DNA of 18,567 nucleotides, taken from assembly GCA_964423545.1 (NCBI GenBank), contig CAYRFV010000092.1, positions 1-18,567 of the forward strand. Direction: 5' to 3'. Below are positions 2,714 to 11,578 of this stretch, in pieces. Made by a program: the position numbers and the translations under genes. The notes under the pieces were generated by a model, which saw only the letters and a program-made list of their open reading frames with translations, was not told where the DNA came from and searched no databases. The stretch's first letter is position 1; each line of letters starts with the position of its first letter. This DNA is from an uncultured Anaerolineales bacterium. Lineage in GTDB: Bacteria > Chloroflexota > Anaerolineae > CG2-30-64-16.

Positions 2714-3772
2714 ATGAACACCATGTTTGGCGCTTTCGTCATTGCACTGCTGCTGGGTGGGATGGTTGCGTTCTTGATCATTCTTGCCACCGGACGGAAC
2801 AACAAGCCCAACTACCAGTCGGCGACGCGTGTCGGACTGGTCGTGCTCCTGGTGGTTTTCGCGGCCAGCGCGCTGATGGATGCCTTCACGCAGGTGGAGG
2901 CCGGGTCGGTGGCCGTGGTCAAGCAGTTTGGTCAGGTGGTCGGCGTCTTCTACCCCGGCCTGAACCTGAAAATGCCGTTCATCCAGCAGACCGTGCCATA
3001 TCGAACGCAGGAGATCATCTACGAAACGAGCGAGGACCCCAAGACGAGCCAGGCCAACTACAAGGATATCGAGGTGGACACTGCCACGGCCGACGGCCAG
3101 CAGATCCGGGCGCGCTTCACGATCCGCTTCCGCATCGACCCTACTCGGGTGATTGAGATCGTCAACAACCTGGGCACCGAGCCTGAGGTGGTGGAAAAGG
3201 TGGTCAAAGCCACCAGCCGCGTCCACGTGCGCAACATTCTGAAGCAGCACTCGGCCACCGATCTCTATTCGGGCAACGTGGAGCGAGCCCAGGAGGAGAT
3301 CCGCCAGCGGCTGGATACCGAGTTCGGCCATGCCGGCCTGCAGCTCATCTTCTTCGGCCTGCGCTCGATTCACTTCGAGCCGGAGTATATCAAGGCCGTC
3401 GAACAGAAGCAGATCGAGAAAGAGAACATCACGACCAAGGAGAACCTGGCCAAGCAGGCCGAGTTCGAAAAGCAGCGCACGATCACGCAGGCGCAGGGCG
3501 ACGCAGAGCGCGAGAAGCTGCAGCGCATCGGCCAGGCCCAGGGTGAGGCGGAGGCCATTCGCGTGAAGGCCATCGCCGACGCCGAGGCGACCCGCATCAA
3601 GGCGCAGGCGCAGGCGGAAGCGAACAAGCTGATAGCCCAGAGCCTCGATCCCAACGTGATCAACTGGCAGGCGATCCAGCAGTGGAGCGGGCAATATCCG
3701 ACGGTGATGGGTGCGGGAGGGAGCTTCATCCTGCCCGGAGATCTGTTCAAAGCGCCGGCGCCAAGCAAGTAG
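2714..3772 (+). CDS. SPFH/band 7 domain membrane protein (HflC/flotillin-like) with a C-terminal Ala/Glu/Gln-rich coiled-coil repeat region
   Basis: AAGGAG lies 8 nt upstream of the ATG. The protein has an N-terminal transmembrane segment (FGAFVIALLLGGMVAFLIILA). The SPFH core includes 'AVVKQFGQVVGVFYPGLNLKMPFIQQ', 'YETSEDPKTSQANYKDIEVDTATADGQQIRARFTIRFRIDP' and 'FGLRSIHFEPEYIKAVEQKQ'. The C-terminus has repeats such as 'QAQGDAEREKLQRIGQAQGEAEAIRVKAIADAEATRIKAQAQAEA'. Confidence 0.85.
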   Translation: MNTMFGAFVIALLLGGMVAFLIILATGRNNKPNYQSATRVGLVVLLVVFAASALMDAFTQVEAGSVAVVKQFGQVVGVFYPGLNLKMPFIQQTVPYRTQEIIYETSEDPKTSQANYKDIEVDTATADGQQIRARFTIRFRIDPTRVIEIVNNLGTEPEVVEKVVKATSRVHVRNILKQHSATDLYSGNVERAQEEIRQRLDTEFGHAGLQLIFFGLRSIHFEPEYIKAVEQKQIEKENITTKENLAKQAEFEKQRTITQAQGDAEREKLQRIGQAQGEAEAIRVKAIADAEATRIKAQAQAEANKLIAQSLDPNVINWQAIQQWSGQYPTVMGAGGSFILPGDLFKAPAPSK

Positions 3773-3784
3773 TCTGCGAAACTC

Positions 3785-3813
3785 TTGACAATGACCTGCT
3801 AAAGTATTATACT
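3785..3813 (+). promoter_or_regulatory. near-consensus sigma70 promoter TTGACA-N17-TATACT upstream of the J-protein gene; the -10 overlaps the palindrome AGTATtATACT
   Basis: cTTGACAatgacctgctaaagtatTATACTcc is the best promoter match in the window and sits about 40 nt upstream of the start at 3857. Confidence 0.55.
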
Positions 3814-3856: not shown

Positions 3857-4804
3857 ATGGAGTATAAAGACTACTACAAGACGCTGGGCGTTGAGAAGAG
3901 TGCGGACGAGAAAGAGATCAAGAAAGCCTATCGGCGGCTTGCGCGCCAGTATCATCCTGATGTGAACCCTGGCGACAAAGCCGCCGAAGCCCGTTTTAAA
4001 GAGATCAACGAGGCCTACGAGGTGCTCAGCGATGCCGAGAAACGCCGCAAATACGACGAACTCGGGCAAAGCTATCAGCGCTGGCAGCAGATGGGTGGCG
4101 GATCGGGCGGCTTTGATTGGAACCAATGGGCGGCCAGGGGCGGAACGGGTGGCGCACGCGTCTCATACGGCGACATCAACGATCTCTTTGCGCAGGGGGG
4201 CTTCTCCGATTTCTTCGAAGCGATCTTCGGCGGAATGAGTGCGGCCGCACAGGGGCGGGAAGCTGAGACTGCCAGCAGGGTCCGCGGCCATGATCTCGAG
4301 CACGAGGTTGAGGTTTCCCTCGAAGAGGCATTTCGCGGTGCGCAGCGCCTGGTGGAAATGGACGGTCGCCGGCTGGAAGTCAAAATCCCTGCGGGCGTCA
4401 AGACGGGCTCACGCGTGCGCGTGGCGGGCGAAGGCCCGGCAACCGCAAGCCGGGGCGCGGCTCGCGGCGACCTTTACCTCCGCATCAAAGTGCTGCCGCA
4501 CCCTACATTCGAGCGCCGCGACGACGATCTGCACTGCGAAGCCCCTGTCGATCTTTTCGTCGCACTGTTAGGTGGTGAGGTGCGCGTGCCGACGCTGTCG
4601 GGATCCGTTGCGCTGCGCATCCCCGCCGGCACGCAGTCGGGGCGCACCTTTCGGCTTTCGGGACAAGGCATGCCCAGGCTGCGCTCGCCGCAGGAGCACG
4701 GCGATCTTTATGCCAGGGTACGCGTGATGCTGCCCGAAAAGCTGGACGACCACGAACAGAAACTTGTGCGTGAGTGGGCGGCGCTGCGGGGAAGGAACGC
4801 CTGA
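3857..4804 (+). CDS. cbpA: J-domain co-chaperone of the CbpA type (DnaJ-like, lacks the Cys-rich zinc-finger region)
   Basis: The J-domain '[36 protein letters not shown]' carries the HPD motif and is followed by '[19 protein letters not shown]'. A Gly/Phe-rich linker (GGGSGGFDW...[13 protein letters not shown]) comes next. The two DnaJ C-terminal beta-domains are present (e.g. '[19 protein letters not shown]', '[46 protein letters not shown]'). No CxxCxGxG repeats occur, so the architecture is CbpA rather than DnaJ. Confidence 0.85.
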
Positions 4805-5098
4805 ACTGAGCGCAGGACGAAACCTGCCTGGCCGGATGCCACCGTGTCATTCCAGCGCACGCGGGAATCCGGGCCCAGTTGCTAAACATTCGCATTCGCA
4901 TGTGCGACGCGCGATGAAAGCCGCGCACTGGCGGACATCGGGAGTCTGAGGTTTTCAAGCTGGAACCTGTTTGGTGCGCCCAGGTCGAGGCGACATCACC
5001 CTGCGTCGACCCACGGGCGGCCCGACTGGACGCATGCTCATTCCATCCAGCCCGTTCGCCTTCAAGCGCAGCACATTACCACTTCACCTAGGTGCGCC

Positions 5099-6655
5099 AT
5101 GTCGTCTACGCCAGACACCTGGAATGAGCCTCGCTACGCCATCGGCGCCGTCGCCGCGATGCTTGCGTTGCATCCGCAGACGCTGCGCCGCTACGAGGAG
5201 CTCGGCCTGTTGGTGCCCGCTCGCAAGGCGGGCCGCCGTCTCTATTCCCCGCGCGAGGTGGAACTCCTCCGCTCTATCTCCCGTCTGAGCAGCCAACTCG
5301 GTCTTAACATGGCCGGCGTAGAAGTGATTCTGCGCCTCAACCAGCGCATCAACGAGCTGCAGAGCGAAGTCGACATCCTCCAGGGTGCGCGCACCAGCCT
5401 CGAAGAGCAGATTGCCACCCTGAAGGAGGAGTTACGCCAGGCGCAAGTGCATTCCTCACTTCGATCGAGTATTCCGACGATCGAACAGCCCAAGGCGGCT
5501 CCCAGAGCCACCCTATCTTCGGGCGGATCGCCACGCCCGCTATTCAAGACAGGAGCGTCTACCATGATGCAAGAACGCGATTTGCAGGAACTGGCCGAAC
5601 TGAAGAGCGCCACTGCTCCCATCCTGAGCCTGTATCTGAATGCAGACCCGCATCGTCGCTCCAGTGAAGAGCACAAGCTCTCGCTGCGCAGACTGCTGTC
5701 CCAGGCAGCCAACCAGGGCGCAGCACAGGCCGATGTCGAGCGCATCGAACGCTTCTTTGAGCACGAATACAATCGGCAGGGACGCGGCGTTGCCTGCTTC
5801 AGCCAGCAGAAGCTGGGATTCTGGCGGGAATACGAGCTTCTGGTTCCCGTCGAAGATTTCGTGTTCCTCGGCCAGCGACCCTACATCTTTCCGTTAAGCG
5901 ACATCTGGGATAACTACGGCCGGTTCGGCGTGCTCATGGTCGACCGAGAGGGCGCCCGGGCCTTCATCTATCACCTCGGCGCGCTCGAAGATTCGGCCGG
6001 CACCCTGGGCGAGGAGGTCAAGCGGCACAAGCAGGGTGGCTGGGCCGCGCAGAAACTGCAACGGTATGAAGATCAGGCGGCTGCGCACAATCTCAAGGGA
6101 GCAGCGGCCTGGGCTGATGATTTCCTGCGCGAGCGCAACGTCGAGCGCGTGGTCCTTTCCGGCAGCGATGGCAACCTGGCCCTGTTTCGCGATCTCGCCC
6201 CCCGCGCGCTTCAGGACAAAGTCATCGGCCAGATCAACCTGGACATGAACACCACGCCCGTTGAGGTTTGGGAGCATGCTTTTCTGGTGGCGCAGGCCGC
6301 TCAGCGGCGAGCGGAAAGCGATCTGTTGCAGCAAGTGGTGACTGCGGCGCGCAAGGGCGGCGCCGGAGCGACAGGCCTGACCGACACGTTGGCTGCGATG
6401 CAGGCGAACCGAATCCACCAGTTGCTCGTGGATCGCAATTTGCACGCTGCGGGCAATCAATGCGCCAACTGCGGCGCACTGGTGGTCGATCCACTCAAAA
6501 CGTGCCCCTACTGCAACGGCAAACTAGCTGCCACTGCCGATGTCGTCAATCTGGTGCTCAGCCGGGCGACCGAAACCGGCGTCAAAGTGGCCGTCCTGGA
6601 GCCCAGCTCGCAGCTTACCGAGGTCGGCGGGATCGCGGCCGTGCTGCGATATTGA
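5099..6655 (+). CDS. hspR: fusion protein: N-terminal HspR-like MerR-family heat-shock repressor (aa 1 to ~115), Ser/Pro-rich linker, C-terminal eRF1/Pelota-superfamily three-domain module (aa ~156-518) with GGW in place of GGQ and a Cys4 zinc ribbon
   Basis: The N-terminus 'YAIGAVAAMLALHPQTLRRYEELGLLVPARKAGRRLYSPREVELLRSISRLSSQLGLNMAGVEVILRLNQRINELQ' follows the HspR HTH pattern (Streptomyces HspR has ...LHPQTLRQYDRLGLVSP...RRYS..DIELLR...). The C-terminal module is colinear with eukaryotic eRF1. Domain-1-like segment: 'LQELAELKSATAPILSLYLNADP...GVACFSQQ...VEDFVFLGQRPYIFPL'. Domain-2-like segment: 'GRFGVLMVDREGARAFIY...KRHKQGGWAAQKLQRY' (compare eRF1 'KKHGRGGQSALRFARLR') and 'VVLSGSDGNLALFRDLAPRALQDKVIGQINLD' (compare eRF1 '[31 protein letters not shown]'). 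Domain-3-like segment: 'TGLTDTLAAMQANRIHQLLVD' and the C-terminal 'EVGGIAAVLRY' (compare eRF1 'GGIGGILRY'). There are no in-frame stops across the junction. Confidence 0.75.
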   Translation: MSSTPDTWNEPRYAIGAVAAMLALHPQTLRRYEELGLLVPARKAGRRLYSPREVELLRSISRLSSQLGLNMAGVEVILRLNQRINELQSEVDILQGARTSLEEQIATLKEELRQAQVHSSLRSSIPTIEQPKAAPRATLSSGGSPRPLFKTGASTMMQERDLQELAELKSATAPILSLYLNADPHRRSSEEHKLSLRRLLSQAANQGAAQADVERIERFFEHEYNRQGRGVACFSQQKLGFWREYELLVPVEDFVFLGQRPYIFPLSDIWDNYGRFGVLMVDREGARAFIYHLGALEDSAGTLGEEVKRHKQGGWAAQKLQRYEDQAAAHNLKGAAAWADDFLRERNVERVVLSGSDGNLALFRDLAPRALQDKVIGQINLDMNTTPVEVWEHAFLVAQAAQRRAESDLLQQVVTAARKGGAGATGLTDTLAAMQANRIHQLLVDRNLHAAGNQCANCGALVVDPLKTCPYCNGKLAATADVVNLVLSRATETGVKVAVLEPSSQLTEVGGIAAVLRY

Positions 6656-6818
6656 GCCGTCGTGTGTTGTGTCGTGTCGAGGCGTTTGCATTGCGTTAGA
6701 GGATTGCGCTTTGTAGCCGCTCCTACACCGAGGGCTTTGGCCCGGTGATATGGTAAGATTGAGCGAGCGGACCGATGAAGAAGCTCGTACGATGCAACTC
6801 AGATGAGGTTGGGTGGAT

Positions 6819-9326
<2,508 letters not shown>

Positions 9327-9335
9327 GGCTGACGC

Positions 9336-9375
9336 CAGGAGCTGGACGCGACTATGAGCCGGCGTCCAGCTCCTG
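9336..9375. terminator. perfect 14-bp inverted repeat (CAGGAGCTGGACGC / GCGTCCAGCTCCTG, 12-nt loop) between convergent clpC and psuG; candidate bidirectional terminator overlapping the psuG stop codon
   Basis: The left arm is 9336..9349 and the right arm 9362..9375. The clpC stop is 9324..9326 and the psuG stop is 9352..9354 (minus). There is no U-tract. Confidence 0.45.
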
Positions 9376-10356
9376 CCTAGCAGCCAGCGCCAGCGCAATC
9401 TGCGCGCCGATGGCCGCGTTGTTCTCCAGCAACGCCAGGTTCGCACGCAGGCTGGTCTCCCCGGTCAGTTCGCTGATCCTGGCCAACAAGAACGGCGTCA
9501 GCGCCTTGCCCTTGACCTCTTGCGCTTCCGCCTCCTCCAGCGCCTGGTCGACCGCACTCTCCATCCGCTCTGCGGGCAGCTCGAACTGAGCGGGAACGGG
9601 CGCCGTCACCAACATGCCGCCTGGCAATCCTAACGCCCGCTGGGCCCGAAACAGCGCAACGACCTCGTCAGGCGTGTCGGCTCGCACGTCGACCGGCAAC
9701 CCGCTCGAACGATGATAGAACGCCGGAAAGTCATCGGTCCCATAGCCGACCACGGTCACACCGTATGTCTCCAGCCATTCCAGCGTTGCGGGCAGGTCAA
9801 GAATCGCCTTGGCGCCTGCGCATACGACGATGAGGGGGGTTTGCGCCAGCTCAGGGAGGTCGGCCGAGATATCGGTCGACAGAAAGCTGAATGTTGGTCG
9901 CTGAATGCTCGATGCCGGATGCCGGATGGCGGACGACGGGGCGGCATTGCCACGGCTCCTGCGACCCGCGGCCGACCCCATGCTGCCCCCCTCCAACTTC
10001 CAGCTTCCAGCCCTGTGCACCCCGCCGATGCCGCCGGTAGCGAACACCCGAATGCCGGCGCGGTGCGCAGCCCAGGCGGTCGTGGCGACGGTCGTGGCGC
10101 CGTCCAGCTTGCGCGCAACGACAATCGGCAGATCGCGGCGGCTGACCTTGCGCACGTCCGGCGCGGTCGCCAGATGCTCGATCTGGCCTCGACTCAGGCC
10201 GACCACGATCTCGCCGGCGATGATGCCGATCGTAGCAGGCGTCGCGCCGTGCTCAGCCACGATCTCCTCCAGCCGGAGCGCCAGCCGCAGGTTGTGCGGG
10301 TAAGGCAGGCCGTGGGAGATGACGGTGGATTCGAGGGCGACGACTGGTTGTACCAT
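9352..10356 (-). CDS. psuG: pseudouridine-5'-phosphate glycosidase (IndA/YeiN family) carrying a 38-aa in-frame low-complexity insertion
   Basis: The N-terminal 'VVALESTVISHGLPYPHN' matches the YeiN family. Other family motifs are 'KVSRRDLPIVVA', 'ATTVA', 'FATGGIGGVHR', 'DISADLPELAQTPLIVVCAGAKAILDL', 'TLEWLETYGVTVVGYGTD' and 'TPFLLARISELTGGETSL'. Between 'GGVHRAG' and 'STDISADL' an extra segment SWKLEGGSMGSAAGRRSRGNAAPSSAIRHPASSIQRPTFSFL occurs where E. coli YeiN has only 'AEHTF'. Confidence 0.85.
   Translation of the reverse strand: MVQPVVALESTVISHGLPYPHNLRLALRLEEIVAEHGATPATIGIIAGEIVVGLSRGQIEHLATAPDVRKVSRRDLPIVVARKLDGATTVATTAWAAHRAGIRVFATGGIGGVHRAGSWKLEGGSMGSAAGRRSRGNAAPSSAIRHPASSIQRPTFSFLSTDISADLPELAQTPLIVVCAGAKAILDLPATLEWLETYGVTVVGYGTDDFPAFYHRSSGLPVDVRADTPDEVVALFRAQRALGLPGGMLVTAPVPAQFELPAERMESAVDQALEEAEAQEVKGKALTPFLLARISELTGETSLRANLALLENNAAIGAQIALALAARQELDAGS
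9893..10006 (-). other. in-frame insertion of about 114 bp inside psuG containing short tandem repeats (gccggat x2 at 9914..9927; cttccag x2 at 9996..10009)
   Basis: The boundaries come from aligning the encoded protein against the PsuG family pattern by eye. The inserted DNA is low complexity with direct repeats. The edges are uncertain to about +/-10 bp. Confidence 0.5.
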
Positions 10357-10549: not shown

Positions 10550-11578
10550 TTATTCGCGATCTTTGCGGCGCACCCATGCGCGTTCTATCGCATTCGTGAC
10601 CTCTGGGTGTATCCGGATGCTGTCGATAGTGACATGGCGAATTTCGGTTCCCCAGTCTCCGGTCTTCTTGTTGGCCTCAACCCGGATCTGCTGCTCCAGA
10701 CCCTCATGATTGCGGGCAGCGGCGAGATCACAGACACCTTGCAGGTTGAGTTGCTGCCTGATCGCACGTTCAAGCGCTCGTCGCGTGGCGGTTTCCAGAT
10801 CAGGTTGGGCCTTTCCTAGCGCCAGGATTGAGTCTGGATCCAACAACAGCAGGACCTTGCCGGCAGCGTCTTTCACCGACTTTCGTCTGACGCCGTAAGA
10901 CGCCGATATCTGCGCTGAGCATACCATGCTCTCTTGGGTCAAGATATCATCCAGTCCTACGGTTAGCTGCTTGTCGCGGACGTCATACACAGCCTCCACT
11001 GACTCGTGTCCTCCGATCACCGCTGGTTGCATCAGCACCTTGGGCGTGCTGCCTGGTGCGCCCTTGACGATCACAGCACTACCGGTGTCAATCCGGAGCC
11101 GTCGAGGACCCTTGACCGGAATCGCGAGCGAGGCAGAAGCCAGTTTGCCATTGCTGACACGAACGTCCCCGCCAATCTTGCCCAGGGCGAGCTGCAAATG
11201 ATGCTCAAGCGCCGCGGAGGACTTTCCATCATAGAGATCGCGCTGAAGGTAGGCAGAGAACCAGAACACGACGATACTTGCCAGCAACACCCCAAGGGCG
11301 ACGGTCCATGGACCGATTACTACCATCAGCAGCAGGATCGCCAAGAGTAGCAGCAGGAACCCCAACCGCTTGTCCCCGCGCCTGGAAGCCAGAAGTATGA
11401 AGATGCTGGCAAGCAGAGGCGTACCGATGAGAAAGCCGGCGGGAGCCCATGATAGCTCCGGCTGGAGTTCAACCGAAATCTGCTTGAGTAGGAAATCCAC
11501 CCCGAGCAGTAGTATAGCTGTTCCTACAGTCAGAGCCACCAGCAGAACCGCGACCTCAGGTGCGTGGCGCGTGGCCAT
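10550..11578 (-). CDS. membrane protein with four N-terminal TM helices and a C-terminal divergent SPFH/band-7-like domain
   Basis: GAGGAG lies 6 nt upstream of the ATG at 11578. The hydrophobic N-terminus spans aa 9 to ~118. The C-terminal segment 'ETATRRALERAIRQQLNLQGVCDLAAARNHEGLEQQIRVEANKKTGDWGTEIRHVTIDSIRIHPEVTNAIE' resembles the SPFH C-terminal consensus (...WGI.V..V.I.DI.LP.EV..AM). Confidence 0.55.
   Translation of the reverse strand: MATRHAPEVAVLLVALTVGTAILLLGVDFLLKQISVELQPELSWAPAGFLIGTPLLASIFILLASRRGDKRLGFLLLLLAILLLMVVIGPWTVALGVLLASIVVFWFSAYLQRDLYDGKSSAALEHHLQLALGKIGGDVRVSNGKLASASLAIPVKGPRRLRIDTGSAVIVKGAPGSTPKVLMQPAVIGGHESVEAVYDVRDKQLTVGLDDILTQESMVCSAQISASYGVRRKSVKDAAGKVLLLLDPDSILALGKAQPDLETATRRALERAIRQQLNLQGVCDLAAARNHEGLEQQIRVEANKKTGDWGTEIRHVTIDSIRIHPEVTNAIERAWVRRKDRE

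What the first reader, a model, noticed from the sequence alone, without database searches (positions are those of the whole stretch)
6035..6520. eRF1-like domain has GGW at the catalytic GGQ position and a Cys4 zinc ribbon replacing the eRF1 mini-domain
Aligned by eye to eRF1 'KKHGRGGQSALRF', this protein reads 'KRHKQGGWAAQKLQRY' (GGW codons at 6035..6043). The glutamine that positions water for peptidyl-tRNA hydrolysis is replaced by tryptophan, with a Gln three residues later. Where eRF1 domain 3 has its mini-domain, this protein has 'CANCGALVVDPLKTCPYCNG' (6461..6520), a classic CxxC-N11-CxxC zinc ribbon.

The protein may therefore bind the ribosomal A-site like Pelota/Dom34 without hydrolysing peptidyl-tRNA, or it may use a shifted Gln. 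Either way it differs from canonical release factors.
Basis: partly seen in the sequence, partly recalled or inferred. Interest (0 to 1): 0.6.

Follow-up and report, generated by a model that had tools for sequence, protein, structure and literature searches.

The report
Heat-shock-operon Balon-like ribosome factor (baeRF10)
This is a bacterial relative of the archaeal/eukaryotic release factor eRF1 from a known family (Pfam baeRF family 10, close to the ribosome hibernation factor Balon); its tryptophan-for-glutamine change and its zinc ribbon are typical of that family, and the gene sits in a heat-shock operon, so it probably parks ribosomes during heat stress and does not release proteins.

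Summary
GGW is encoded at 6035-6043 and a Cys4 motif at 6461-6520, although the spacing is CxxC-N10-CxxC, not N11.

Profile alignments place the Trp without gaps on the catalytic Gln of aRF1/eRF1. They place the zinc ribbon at the eRF1 mini-domain site.

Neither feature is peculiar to this protein. It is a clear member of Pfam baeRF_family10 (114 bits, cut-off 27). In 130 divergent representatives the two Gly are about 85% conserved, Trp 65% and each Cys 92-95%. Only one has GGQ, and no Gln position is universal.

The closest solved structures are the ribosome-bound hibernation factor Balon (MSMEG_1130, TM 0.76), then archaeal aRF1. The zinc ribbon is the ancestral aeRF1 insert, not a replacement.

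In Chloroflexota the gene lies in a conserved dnaJ-(hspR)-baeRF10-clpB cluster. In this window, loss of one stop codon has fused hspR to it in frame; the internal ribosome-binding site and ATG are kept.

Best reading: a heat-shock-induced, non-hydrolytic factor that occupies the ribosomal A site and peptidyl-transferase centre, like Balon. Hydrolase activity is not excluded.

It is a new member of a known kind, of moderate interest.

The parts
2714..3772 (+). SPFH/Band_7 gene, a recurrent upstream neighbour of the cluster
   Evidence: Pfam Band_7 E=1.6e-24. It lies upstream of dnaJ in L001, L005-L008, L010, L011, L018, L023 and L033.
3784..3813 (+). Promoter-like site upstream of dnaJ: TTGACA (3785-3790), 17-nt spacer, TATACT (3808-3813). 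It overlaps a HAIR-like inverted repeat CTTGACA-N7-GCTAAAG (3784-3804).
   Evidence: 11 of 12 consensus matches. The -35 and -10 boxes are conserved in more than 35 related loci. The TAAAGTA half-site is conserved only in loci that carry hspR. The repeat is four mismatches from the actinobacterial HAIR consensus, which is why the 3-mismatch search found nothing. Operator function is inferred.
3857..4804 (+). dnaJ/cbpA-type J-protein gene (J domain plus DnaJ_C, no zinc-finger domain detected)
   Evidence: Pfam DnaJ 2.8e-29 and DnaJ_C 1.1e-45. It lies upstream on the same strand in 33 of 33 close genome loci.
5099..5449 (+). HspR-like MerR helix-turn-helix moiety, residues 1-117 of the 518-aa ORF
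   Evidence: Pfam MerR_1 1.1e-14. NCBIfam HspR 88.5 bits, best hit but below the 105-bit cut-off. It corresponds to the separate 117-aa gene in L001.
5450..5563 (+). Linker derived from the former hspR-baeRF10 intergenic spacer. It contains Shine-Dalgarno AGGAG (5551-5555) eight nt before the ATG at 5564.
   Evidence: The DNA alignment with L001 shows TAG in L001 where the window has CAT and L004 has CAA. The segment GACAGGAGCGT(C/A)(T/C)ACCATGATGCA is conserved in fused and unfused loci alike. Only the window and L004 are fused, out of 20 related loci with hspR next to baeRF10 plus the window.
5564..6655 (+). baeRF family 10 (aeRF1/Balon-like) protein moiety, 363 aa. N domain about 5564-5878, middle RNase-H-like domain about 5879-6280, C-terminal Pelota-like domain about 6314-6652, stop codon 6653-6655.
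   Evidence: Pfam PF18854 at 114 bits (cut-off 27.1). 118 of the 120 closest homologues are stand-alone, nearly all 362-366 aa; most of those checked begin MMQE. AF2 model: pLDDT 89.1, pTM 0.80. Foldseek best hits are Balon 8v9l_z (TM 0.76) and aRF1 4af1.
6035..6043 (+). GGW codons at the position homologous to the catalytic GGQ, within the family motif H-K-Q-G-G-W-x-x-Q-K-L-Q-R
   Evidence: In the model the loop over residues 150-159 has pLDDT about 64, and the following helix starts at the Trp.
6461..6520 (+). Cys4 zinc ribbon (Cys codons at 6461, 6470, 6503, 6512) inserted in the C-terminal domain at the eRF1 mini-domain / Balon beta-hairpin site
   Evidence: each Cys is conserved in 120-124 of 130 representatives, and all 80 genome loci have the motif.
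6813..9326 (+). clpB disaggregase gene immediately downstream
   Evidence: Pfam Clp_N, AAA, AAA_lid_9, AAA_2 and ClpB_D2-small. It lies downstream on the same strand in 31 of 33 close loci; the two exceptions are loci where little sequence is held downstream.

Best explanation
The 3' two-thirds of ORF 5099-6655 encode a member of bacterial aeRF1 family 10 (baeRF10). This is a three-domain mimic of tRNA and release factor that binds the ribosomal A site.

Its middle-domain loop keeps the Gly-Gly hinge and the rRNA-binding basic residues of aRF1 (K319 and R322, equivalent to eRF1 R189 and R192). A Trp sits where the water-positioning Gln would be. I propose that the loop docks at or next to the peptidyl-transferase centre and blocks it without hydrolysing peptidyl-tRNA, as shown for Balon.

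The Cys4 zinc ribbon is the ancestral form of the C-domain element that forms Balon's EF-Tu-binding hairpin, so it probably contacts EF-Tu.

The gene belongs to a conserved dnaJ-(hspR)-baeRF10-clpB heat-shock cluster. The factor would therefore be made on heat stress and would pause and protect ribosomes while DnaJ and ClpB deal with protein aggregates.

Shown here: family membership, residue equivalences, conservation, fold similarity and gene order. Inferred: ribosome binding, lack of hydrolysis, the EF-Tu contact and heat induction.

In this lineage, loss of one stop codon joined hspR to the gene. The conserved internal SD and ATG suggest that the 363-aa protein is still made on its own.
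For: - Family: Pfam baeRF_family10 at 114 bits; all 96 divergent relatives tested hit it.
- Nearest solved relatives are ribosome-bound Balon proteins: MSMEG_1130 at E=3.6e-16 (single sequence) and 6.7e-37 (profile); Rv2629 at 1e-23; Foldseek TM 0.76 to 8v9l_z and 0.69 to P. urativorans Balon.
- Rv2629, which binds the A site and inhibits translation (PMC10901736), has G-W aligned with this GGW.
- The catalytic Gln is absent family-wide: 1 GGQ in 130. No neighbouring Gln is universal: Q before GG in 60 of 130 by alignment column (56 by motif search), Q one to three residues after the residue following GG in 45, neither in 38 of the 103 with GG.
- Loop length varies from 16 to 45 residues.
- In the same heat-shock context, sister lineages replace W with G/A-S plus a Gly/Arg-rich extension. 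This fits an rRNA-binding loop better than a catalytic one.
- The NIKS stop-codon motif is absent.
- Gene order: dnaJ upstream in 33 of 33 close loci and clpB downstream in 31 of 33; hspR immediately upstream in 17 of the 80 genome loci, down to 35% identity; GGW loci lie in heat-shock context in 37 of 42 cases.
- A strong promoter with a HAIR-like repeat is conserved only in loci that carry hspR.
- Literature: Balon homologues lack GGQ and NIKS and sit in stress operons that include Hsp20, DnaK and DnaJ (PMC10901736).
Against: - The protein scores far below the NCBIfam equivalog cut-offs for the characterised Balon families: 91 vs 480, 69 vs 320, 30 vs 330.
- Balon's decoding-centre HP motif aligns with 'HRR' here, though that alignment is weak (E 0.1).
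- The GGQ-like loop is much closer to aRF1 than that of any characterised Balon. The Gly-Gly pair, which is essential for release-factor catalysis, is about 85% conserved.
- Burroughs & Aravind singled out family 10 as a possibly active hydrolase.
- From memory and unverified here: bacterial RF variants with the Gln replaced by most residues other than Pro retain some hydrolytic activity in vitro. Absence of Gln is therefore not proof of inactivity.
- I could not superpose coordinates on a ribosome complex, and there are no expression or binding data.
Confidence: 0.58

Rival explanations
1. It is an active alternative release or rescue factor. The conserved Gly-Gly backbone, helped by Q312 (the QGG Gln) or Q318 (GGWAAQ, compare the GGxSQ motif of archaeal and actinobacterial VLRF-1), hydrolyses peptidyl-tRNA on heat-stalled ribosomes. 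DnaJ and ClpB then handle the released incomplete chains.
For: - The loop is nearly identical to that of aRF1 apart from Q to W, and both basic helix residues are retained.
- Q312 and Q318 are almost invariant within the close clade.
- Many family members read GGWSQ, which fits GGxSQ.
- Burroughs & Aravind suggested that family 10 could be catalytic.
- NCBI names some members 'Vms1/Ankzf1 family peptidyl-tRNA hydrolase'.
- The neighbouring chaperone and disaggregase genes would suit nascent-chain clean-up.
Against: - No Gln position is conserved across the family. 38 of the 103 representatives with GG have no Gln nearby, and 27 of 130 lack GG altogether.
- Loop length is unconstrained.
- Q318 is homologous to the second, non-catalytic Gln of aRF1 (GGQSAQ).
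- Lineages in the same operon context have lost both W and the flanking Gln.
- The closest solved relatives are non-hydrolytic (PMC10901736).
Confidence: 0.22
2. It is a Vms1-like factor acting on obstructed 50S subunits. It would cleave the tRNA CCA end or hydrolyse peptidyl-tRNA as part of a bacterial ribosome quality-control route.
For: Pfam acVLRF1 is just above threshold (30.3 vs 27.1) for this protein and is matched by 71 of 96 relatives. Foldseek gives a weak hit to yeast Vms1 6r84_R (E 2.8e-3).
Against: - The family 10 score is far higher (114 bits).
- The protein keeps the full N-M-C architecture of aRF1 and Balon, whereas acVLRF-1 lacks the N domain (PMC6514570).
- Whole-protein TM to Vms1 is 0.22, against 0.76 for Balon.
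- No RqcH or other RQC genes are nearby.
Confidence: 0.06
3. The eRF1-like part works mainly as a regulatory or sensor module for transcription. When fused or coupled to HspR (and, in other lineages, to an anti-sigma zinc finger), engagement with idle or stalled ribosomes would titrate the regulator away from DNA or from its sigma factor.
For: - In-frame HspR fusion in two independent samples, with the reading frame kept open despite a 6-nt indel and many substitutions in the linker.
- Independent N-terminal zf-HC2 anti-sigma fusions in distant family-10 members.
Against: - The HspR fusion is confined to one narrow lineage.
- 18 other hspR-adjacent loci keep a stop codon.
- The internal SD and ATG are conserved, so separate translation is likely.
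- The fusion needs only one stop-codon loss in a spacer that was already in frame and free of stops (L001), so it could be neutral.
- Most family members are stand-alone.
Confidence: 0.08

Closest known systems
Pfam PF18854 baeRF_family10 (bacterial aeRF-1 clade, Burroughs & Aravind 2019, PMC6514570)
   Same: Clear member: 114 bits against a cut-off of 27.1. It has the three-domain aeRF1 architecture with a zinc ribbon in the Pelota-like domain. The motif HKQGGW..Q..QR is the family consensus.
   Different: The paper describes family 10 as having a 'well-conserved glutamine' typical of active factors. Here the residue at the catalytic position is Trp, and the flanking Gln positions are conserved in only about half of 130 representatives. 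In this lineage the protein is fused in frame to HspR.
Balon ribosome hibernation factors: MSMEG_1130 (8v9j, 8v9l), Rv2629 (8v9k), P. urativorans Balon (8rd8, 8rdv, 8rdw); Helena-Bueno et al. 2024, PMC10901736
   Same: - Best sequence and fold matches.
- No GGQ and no NIKS.
- Stress-operon context.
- The C-domain insert lies at the same site as Balon's EF-Tu-binding hairpin.
- Rv2629 shares the G-W.
   Different: - Only 15-23% identity, far below the NCBIfam equivalog cut-offs.
- It keeps an aRF1-like GG loop of standard length rather than a divergent loop.
- It keeps an intact Cys4 zinc ribbon instead of the degenerate hairpin.
- The HP motif is not conserved.
- Its neighbours are dnaJ, hspR and clpB, not raiA.
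Archaeal aRF1 (4af1, 3agk) and eukaryotic eRF1
   Same: - Same three domains.
- The catalytic-loop region is collinear: GGWAAQKLQR against GGQSAQRFAR.
- The zinc-ribbon or mini-domain insert is at the same site.
- The C-terminal LRY is shared.
   Different: - Q to W at the catalytic position.
- NIKS is absent.
- TIGR03676 scores 50 against a cut-off of 235.
- Bacterial host.
Pelota/Dom34
   Same: A non-catalytic A-site factor of the same superfamily. The middle and C-terminal domains align.
   Different: Only the M and C domains match (profile positions 160-299). TM is 0.38 or lower. Pelota's N domain and loop A have no match.
Vms1/ANKZF1 and acVLRF-1 (PF18859)
   Same: Marginal Pfam match. 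A GGxSQ-like motif occurs in many family members.
   Different: This protein has the N-terminal domain that acVLRF-1 lacks. Its score is much weaker than for family 10. Its fold is far closer to Balon and aRF1.

Membership tests
Pfam PF18854 baeRF_family10 | Score above the curated gathering threshold (27.1 bits) | tested here: met
   113-114 bits, E about 1e-32. All 96 of 96 divergent relatives also match.
Pfam PF18854 baeRF_family10 | Three-domain aeRF1 architecture with an insert (zinc ribbon or two-strand remnant) in the Pelota-like C domain | tested here: met
   AF2 model with pLDDT 89. Full-length Foldseek matches to Balon and aRF1. Cys4 is present in 92-95% of representatives.
Pfam PF18854 baeRF_family10 | A 'well-conserved glutamine' in the catalytic loop (PMC6514570) | tested here: inconclusive
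   The catalytic position is W in 84 of 130 representatives and Q in about 1. The Gln before GG occurs in 60 of 130 and a Gln after W in 45. This protein has Q312 and Q318. I could not see the paper's Figure 2G, so I do not know which Gln was meant.
Balon ribosome hibernation factors (NCBIfam NF052288, NF052289, NF052287) | Equivalog score cut-off | tested here: not met
   91 vs 480, 69 vs 320 and 30 vs 330 bits.
Balon ribosome hibernation factors | aeRF1-like fold lacking the GGQ and NIKS motifs | tested here: met
   TM 0.76 to 8v9l_z. GGW stands in place of GGQ. The NIKS region aligns to a gapped, non-conserved segment.
Balon ribosome hibernation factors | HP motif in the N domain that contacts the decoding centre | tested here: inconclusive
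   'EHP' of 8rd8_B aligns with 'HRR' (residues 30-32 of the 363-aa protein), but the N-domain alignment is weak (E 0.1).
Balon ribosome hibernation factors | Beta-hairpin insert in the C domain that binds EF-Tu | tested here: inconclusive
   An insert of the same length lies at the same site but is an intact Cys4 zinc ribbon. EF-Tu binding cannot be tested here.
Balon ribosome hibernation factors | Binds the ribosomal A site and inhibits translation without releasing the nascent chain | not testable with these tools
   Needs biochemistry or cryo-EM.
Classical aRF1/eRF1 (TIGR03676) | Invariant GGQ, a NIKS-type stop-codon motif and the equivalog score | tested here: not met
   GGW, no NIKS, and 50 bits against a cut-off of 234.7.
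Pelota/Dom34 | Pelota-type N domain with loop A | tested here: not met
   The profile matches Pelota only over the M and C domains. Foldseek TM is 0.38 or lower.
Vms1 / acVLRF-1 (PF18859) | GGxSQ or GxuQ loop with an invariant Gln, and (for acVLRF-1) no N-terminal codon-recognition domain | tested here: not met
   The Pfam score is marginal (30.3 vs 27.1) and lies under the stronger family 10 hit. The loop here is GGWAAQ, the Gln is not invariant in the family, and the N domain is present.
HspR (MerR-family heat-shock repressor, NF047375) for residues 1-117 | Equivalog score; location in a dnaJ/clpB heat-shock cluster; HAIR operator | tested here: inconclusive
   Best NCBIfam hit, but 88.5 bits against a cut-off of 105. 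The context is met. Only a diverged HAIR-like repeat is present, four mismatches from the consensus.

The most novel reading that the evidence does not exclude
GGW family-10 proteins may form a distinct functional class between release factors and Balon. They would be heat-shock-regulated A-site factors whose Trp inserts into the peptidyl-transferase centre. Two outcomes are possible: the Trp acts as a plug that preserves the nascent chain, or it works as a Gln-less catalytic tip that releases the chain for DnaJ and ClpB. In lineages where the factor is fused to HspR or to an anti-sigma zinc finger, ribosome engagement would feed back directly on stress transcription.
Probability: 0.15. Interest if true: 0.72.

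Novelty: new member of a known kind. Interest (0 to 1): 0.4.

Why it matters
Bacterial eRF1-like proteins were recognised in 2019, and one branch (Balon) was shown in 2024 to be a ribosome hibernation factor. Whether the most aRF1-like branch, family 10, hydrolyses peptidyl-tRNA remains open.

This locus adds two pieces of evidence to that question:
- The catalytic Gln is replaced family-wide by Trp, while the Gly-Gly hinge and the rRNA-binding basic residues stay.
- Across Chloroflexota the gene is embedded between dnaJ/hspR and clpB.

Together these point to a link between translation arrest and protein disaggregation during heat shock, and they suggest clear experiments. For annotation, the public record calls this ORF only a 'MerR regulator', and relatives are variously named 'eRF1' or 'Vms1/Ankzf1 peptidyl-tRNA hydrolase'. 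None of these names is backed by a test.

Tried and rejected
- The canonical HAIR operator (CTTGAGT-N7-ACTCAAG, up to 3 mismatches) gave no match in the window. A four-mismatch version turned up only through comparison of promoters.
- The search for related loci with the divergent alignment A3 failed because no stretch was conserved enough. The close alignment A2 was used instead, so the genome loci sampled are all Chloroflexota.
- Rfam at gathering thresholds and the tRNA scan found nothing in the window.
- The 294-nt dnaJ-hspR spacer (4805-5098) has no similarity in 84 related loci and no excess RNA structure (z = 0.04).
- Literature searches for 'baeRF1', 'GGW' with Balon, HspR with eRF1, and Balon with ClpB returned nothing relevant.
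- An explicit 3D superposition on eRF1 or Balon ribosome complexes was not possible. Model and PDB coordinates are not exposed, and fold search gives no residue-level alignment. Residue equivalence therefore rests on HMM alignments and on the secondary structure of the model.
- A pseudogene or sequencing artefact as the cause of the fusion was rejected. The same fused ORF occurs in an independent sample (cluster of 32 members), and both parts are well conserved.
- Pelota/Dom34 as the closest analogue was rejected in favour of Balon and aRF1.
Full report
**1. What is in the sequence**

ORF 5099-6655 on the + strand encodes 518 aa.
- Codons 6035-6043 read GGT GGC TGG (G313, G314, W315) inside KRHKQGGWAAQKLQRY.
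- 6461-6520 encodes CANCGALVVDPLKTCPYCNG, with Cys at 455, 458, 469 and 472.

The ORF is composite.
- Residues 11-95 are a MerR-type helix-turn-helix whose best NCBIfam match is the heat-shock repressor HspR (88.5 bits, below the 105 cut-off).
- Residues 156-518 are the eRF1-like protein.
- That part starts at an internal ATG (5564), preceded by AGGAG at 5551-5555.

**2. What family it belongs to**

The eRF1-like part matches Pfam PF18854, 'bacterial archaeo-eukaryotic release factor family 10', at 114 bits against a cut-off of 27.1. Overlapping hits to baeRF families 2 and 3, acVLRF1 and eRF1 domain 3 are much weaker.

NCBIfam places it nearest the three Balon hibernation-factor families and aRF1, but far under every equivalog cut-off: 91 vs 480, 69 vs 320, 30 vs 330 and 50 vs 235.

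Against solved structures:
- The single sequence hits Balon MSMEG_1130 (E 3.6e-16) and Halobacterium aRF1 4af1 (5e-4).
- A profile of 96 divergent relatives hits MSMEG_1130 (6.7e-37), aRF1 4af1 (2.8e-32), Rv2629 (1e-23), many eRF1 chains (about 5e-21), P. urativorans Balon (1.4e-13) and Pelota (M and C domains only).
- An AlphaFold2 model built on 75 homologues is confident (pLDDT 89.1, pTM 0.80).
- Foldseek ranks ribosome-bound MSMEG_1130 Balon first (TM 0.76), then aRF1, then P. urativorans Balon (TM 0.69). Pelota/Dom34 and Vms1 come far behind.

**3. Does Trp sit at the GGQ position?**

Yes, as far as sequence homology can show. Three independent profile-to-sequence alignments are gapless and have top posterior probability through the motif:
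- family 'krhkqGGwsqarlqrh' against 'gkqrkGGQsaqrfarl' (4af1);
- against 'gkhkmGGQsqrryeri' (A. pernix 3agk);
- against 'kkhgrGGQsalrfarl' (S. pombe eRF1).

In the model, the strand at residues 140-148 is followed by a lower-confidence loop (pLDDT about 64). A long helix then starts exactly at the Trp, which matches the loop-helix arrangement around GGQ.

The basic residues that follow, K319 and R322, align with eRF1 R189 and R192, the rRNA-contacting arginines noted by Burroughs & Aravind.

It is therefore an inherited non-catalytic position, not a relocated catalytic one.

I could not run a coordinate superposition because no coordinates are exposed.

**4. Are W and the four Cys conserved?**

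A search of 1.84 billion cluster representatives found 3,042 relatives at E ≤ 1e-3.

Among the 120 closest homologues (at least 61% identity), the motif is K[RH]HKQGG[W, rarely L, I or R]A[AS]QKLQR, and the ribbon is CxxC-N10-CPYC.

In 130 full-length representatives at 25-45% identity:

| Position | Count of 130 |
|---|---|
| G313 | 110 |
| G314 | 112 |
| W315 | 84 |
| R322 | 106 |
| four Cys | 124 / 120 / 123 / 123 |

The family consensus is H-K-Q-G-G-W-S-Q-A-R-[FY]-Q-R-H. Both features are therefore signatures of the family, not peculiarities of this protein.

No glutamine is universal:
- one sequence has GGQ;
- Q precedes GG in 60 by alignment column (56 by motif search);
- Q follows within three residues after the residue that follows GG in 45;
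- 38 of the 103 sequences with GG have no Gln nearby;
- loop length ranges from 16 to 45 residues.

Within Chloroflexota, sister lineages in the same gene context replace W by G/A-S followed by a Gly/Arg-rich insert such as GRRGG or GMRGG.

Rv2629, a Balon homologue shown to bind the A site, has G-W aligned with GGW.

**5. The zinc ribbon**

It aligns with the 'C-x4-H ... CxxC' insert of Halobacterium aRF1. It also aligns with the longer mini-domain of eRF1 and with the segment of MSMEG_1130 (VGADGSLYADGEIAPHSH) that forms Balon's beta-hairpin.

Burroughs & Aravind describe a zinc ribbon inserted in the Pelota domain as the classical aeRF-1 state, and the two-strand insert of many bacterial families as its probable degenerate form.

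Helena-Bueno et al. show that this hairpin contacts EF-Tu.

The ribbon here is therefore ancestral and retained, not a replacement. Its likely partner is EF-Tu; that last step is inference.

**6. Genomic context**

In the window the gene order on the + strand is Band_7 (2714-3772), dnaJ (3857-4804), hspR-baeRF10 (5099-6655), clpB (6813-9326).

The same order recurs in metagenomic contigs and in 80 Chloroflexota genome loci:
- all 33 loci with at least 58% identity have dnaJ upstream;
- 31 of those 33 have clpB directly downstream; for the other two, little sequence is held downstream of the gene;
- hspR lies immediately upstream in 8 close and 9 distant genome loci, down to 35% identity;
- 37 of 42 GGW loci have a heat-shock neighbour.

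A strong promoter-like site, TTGACA-17-TATACT (3785-3813), precedes dnaJ. Comparison of 52 dnaJ upstream regions shows both boxes conserved. A CTTGACA-N7-GCTAAAG repeat (3784-3804) resembles the actinobacterial HspR operator and is conserved only where hspR is present. The canonical operator itself is absent.

Heat-shock control by HspR is thus plausible but inferred.

The Balon paper lists Hsp20, DnaK and DnaJ among the neighbours of 'Balon homologues', which it defined broadly as all three-domain bacterial aeRF1 homologues. I found no paper that describes the hspR/clpB arrangement or the GGW motif.

**7. The fusion**

118 of the 120 closest homologues are stand-alone (nearly all 362-366 aa). 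Only this window and one cluster from another sample (P0002, 85% identity, 32 members) carry the MerR part.

The DNA alignment shows that the nearest unfused relative (L001) has hspR in the same frame. A single TAG and a stop-free 93-nt spacer separate it from the next gene. The fused loci read CAT or CAA at that codon. The ribosome-binding site and ATGATG start are conserved in all three.

Eighteen other hspR-adjacent loci keep a stop codon.

The fusion is real but recent, and it needed only one substitution. The 363-aa protein is probably still translated separately.

Some distant family-10 members carry an N-terminal anti-sigma zinc finger, zf-HC2. That is a second link between this fold and transcription control, and I did not follow it further.

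**8. Interpretation**

The best-supported model is a Balon-like, non-hydrolytic factor that occupies the A site and the peptidyl-transferase centre and is expressed with the heat-shock chaperones (confidence about 0.58). Four lines of evidence support it:
- the nearest characterised relatives;
- the family-wide absence of a catalytic Gln;
- the plasticity of the loop;
- the operon context.

The main rival is an active hydrolase that uses the conserved Gly-Gly backbone and a neighbouring Gln (about 0.22). The loop is strikingly aRF1-like, and family 10 was flagged as potentially active in 2019. It is not excluded.

Two further readings are minor: Vms1-like activity on 50S subunits, and a primarily regulatory role of the fused protein.

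**9. Verdict**

- The object is a new member of a known family whose biochemical activity is untested.
- Interest is moderate, at 0.4. It comes from the family-wide Q-to-W replacement in an otherwise aRF1-like loop, from the conserved dnaJ-hspR-clpB embedding, and from the lineage-specific HspR fusion.

Noticed in passing
window 5099-6655 (junction 5450-5563); L004 169-1731; L001 2370-3908: hspR and the baeRF10 gene form one ORF here and in one other sample, through loss of a single stop codon (TAG in L001; CAT or CAA in the fused loci). The internal AGGAG and ATG are conserved. Eighteen other hspR-adjacent loci remain unfused. The public record names the ORF only as a MerR regulator.
   Followed up: yes
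window 3784-3813: The dnaJ promoter (TTGACA-17-TATACT) overlaps a diverged HAIR-like repeat, CTTGACA-N7-GCTAAAG. The right half-site is conserved in loci that carry hspR and replaced in loci without it. It is a candidate HspR operator in Chloroflexota.
   Followed up: partly
proteins P0151, P0156, P0200, P0201, P0214 (distant family-10 representatives): These carry an N-terminal zf-HC2 anti-sigma-factor zinc finger fused to the baeRF10 body. This is a second, independent fusion of a transcription-control module to this ribosome-factor fold. Their genomic context could not be looked up with the tools allowed.
   Followed up: no
loci L039, L040, L046-L052, L054-L056, L058-L060, L062, L064, L066, L067, L069, L070, L072, L077; proteins P0125, P0141, P0144, P0145, P0147, P0148: A family-10 subgroup has GG[GA]S in place of GGW, followed by a Gly/Arg-rich insert (GRRGG or GMRGG). 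The GRRGG type often keeps the dnaJ/clpB context; the GMRGG type mostly does not.
   Followed up: partly
window 4805-5098: The dnaJ-hspR spacer is 294 nt here but 67 nt in L001. It has no similarity in 84 related loci, no Rfam match and no excess RNA structure (z = 0.04). Its origin is unexplained.
   Followed up: yes
window 2714-3772 (+) and 10550-11578 (-): Two SPFH/Band_7 genes flank the cluster. An indigoidine-synthase-A-like (pseudouridine-5'-phosphate glycosidase-type) gene lies at 9352-10356 (-) just after clpB. This wider synteny (aminotransferase, Band_7, dnaJ ... clpB, IndA) recurs in many Anaerolineae loci.
   Followed up: partly
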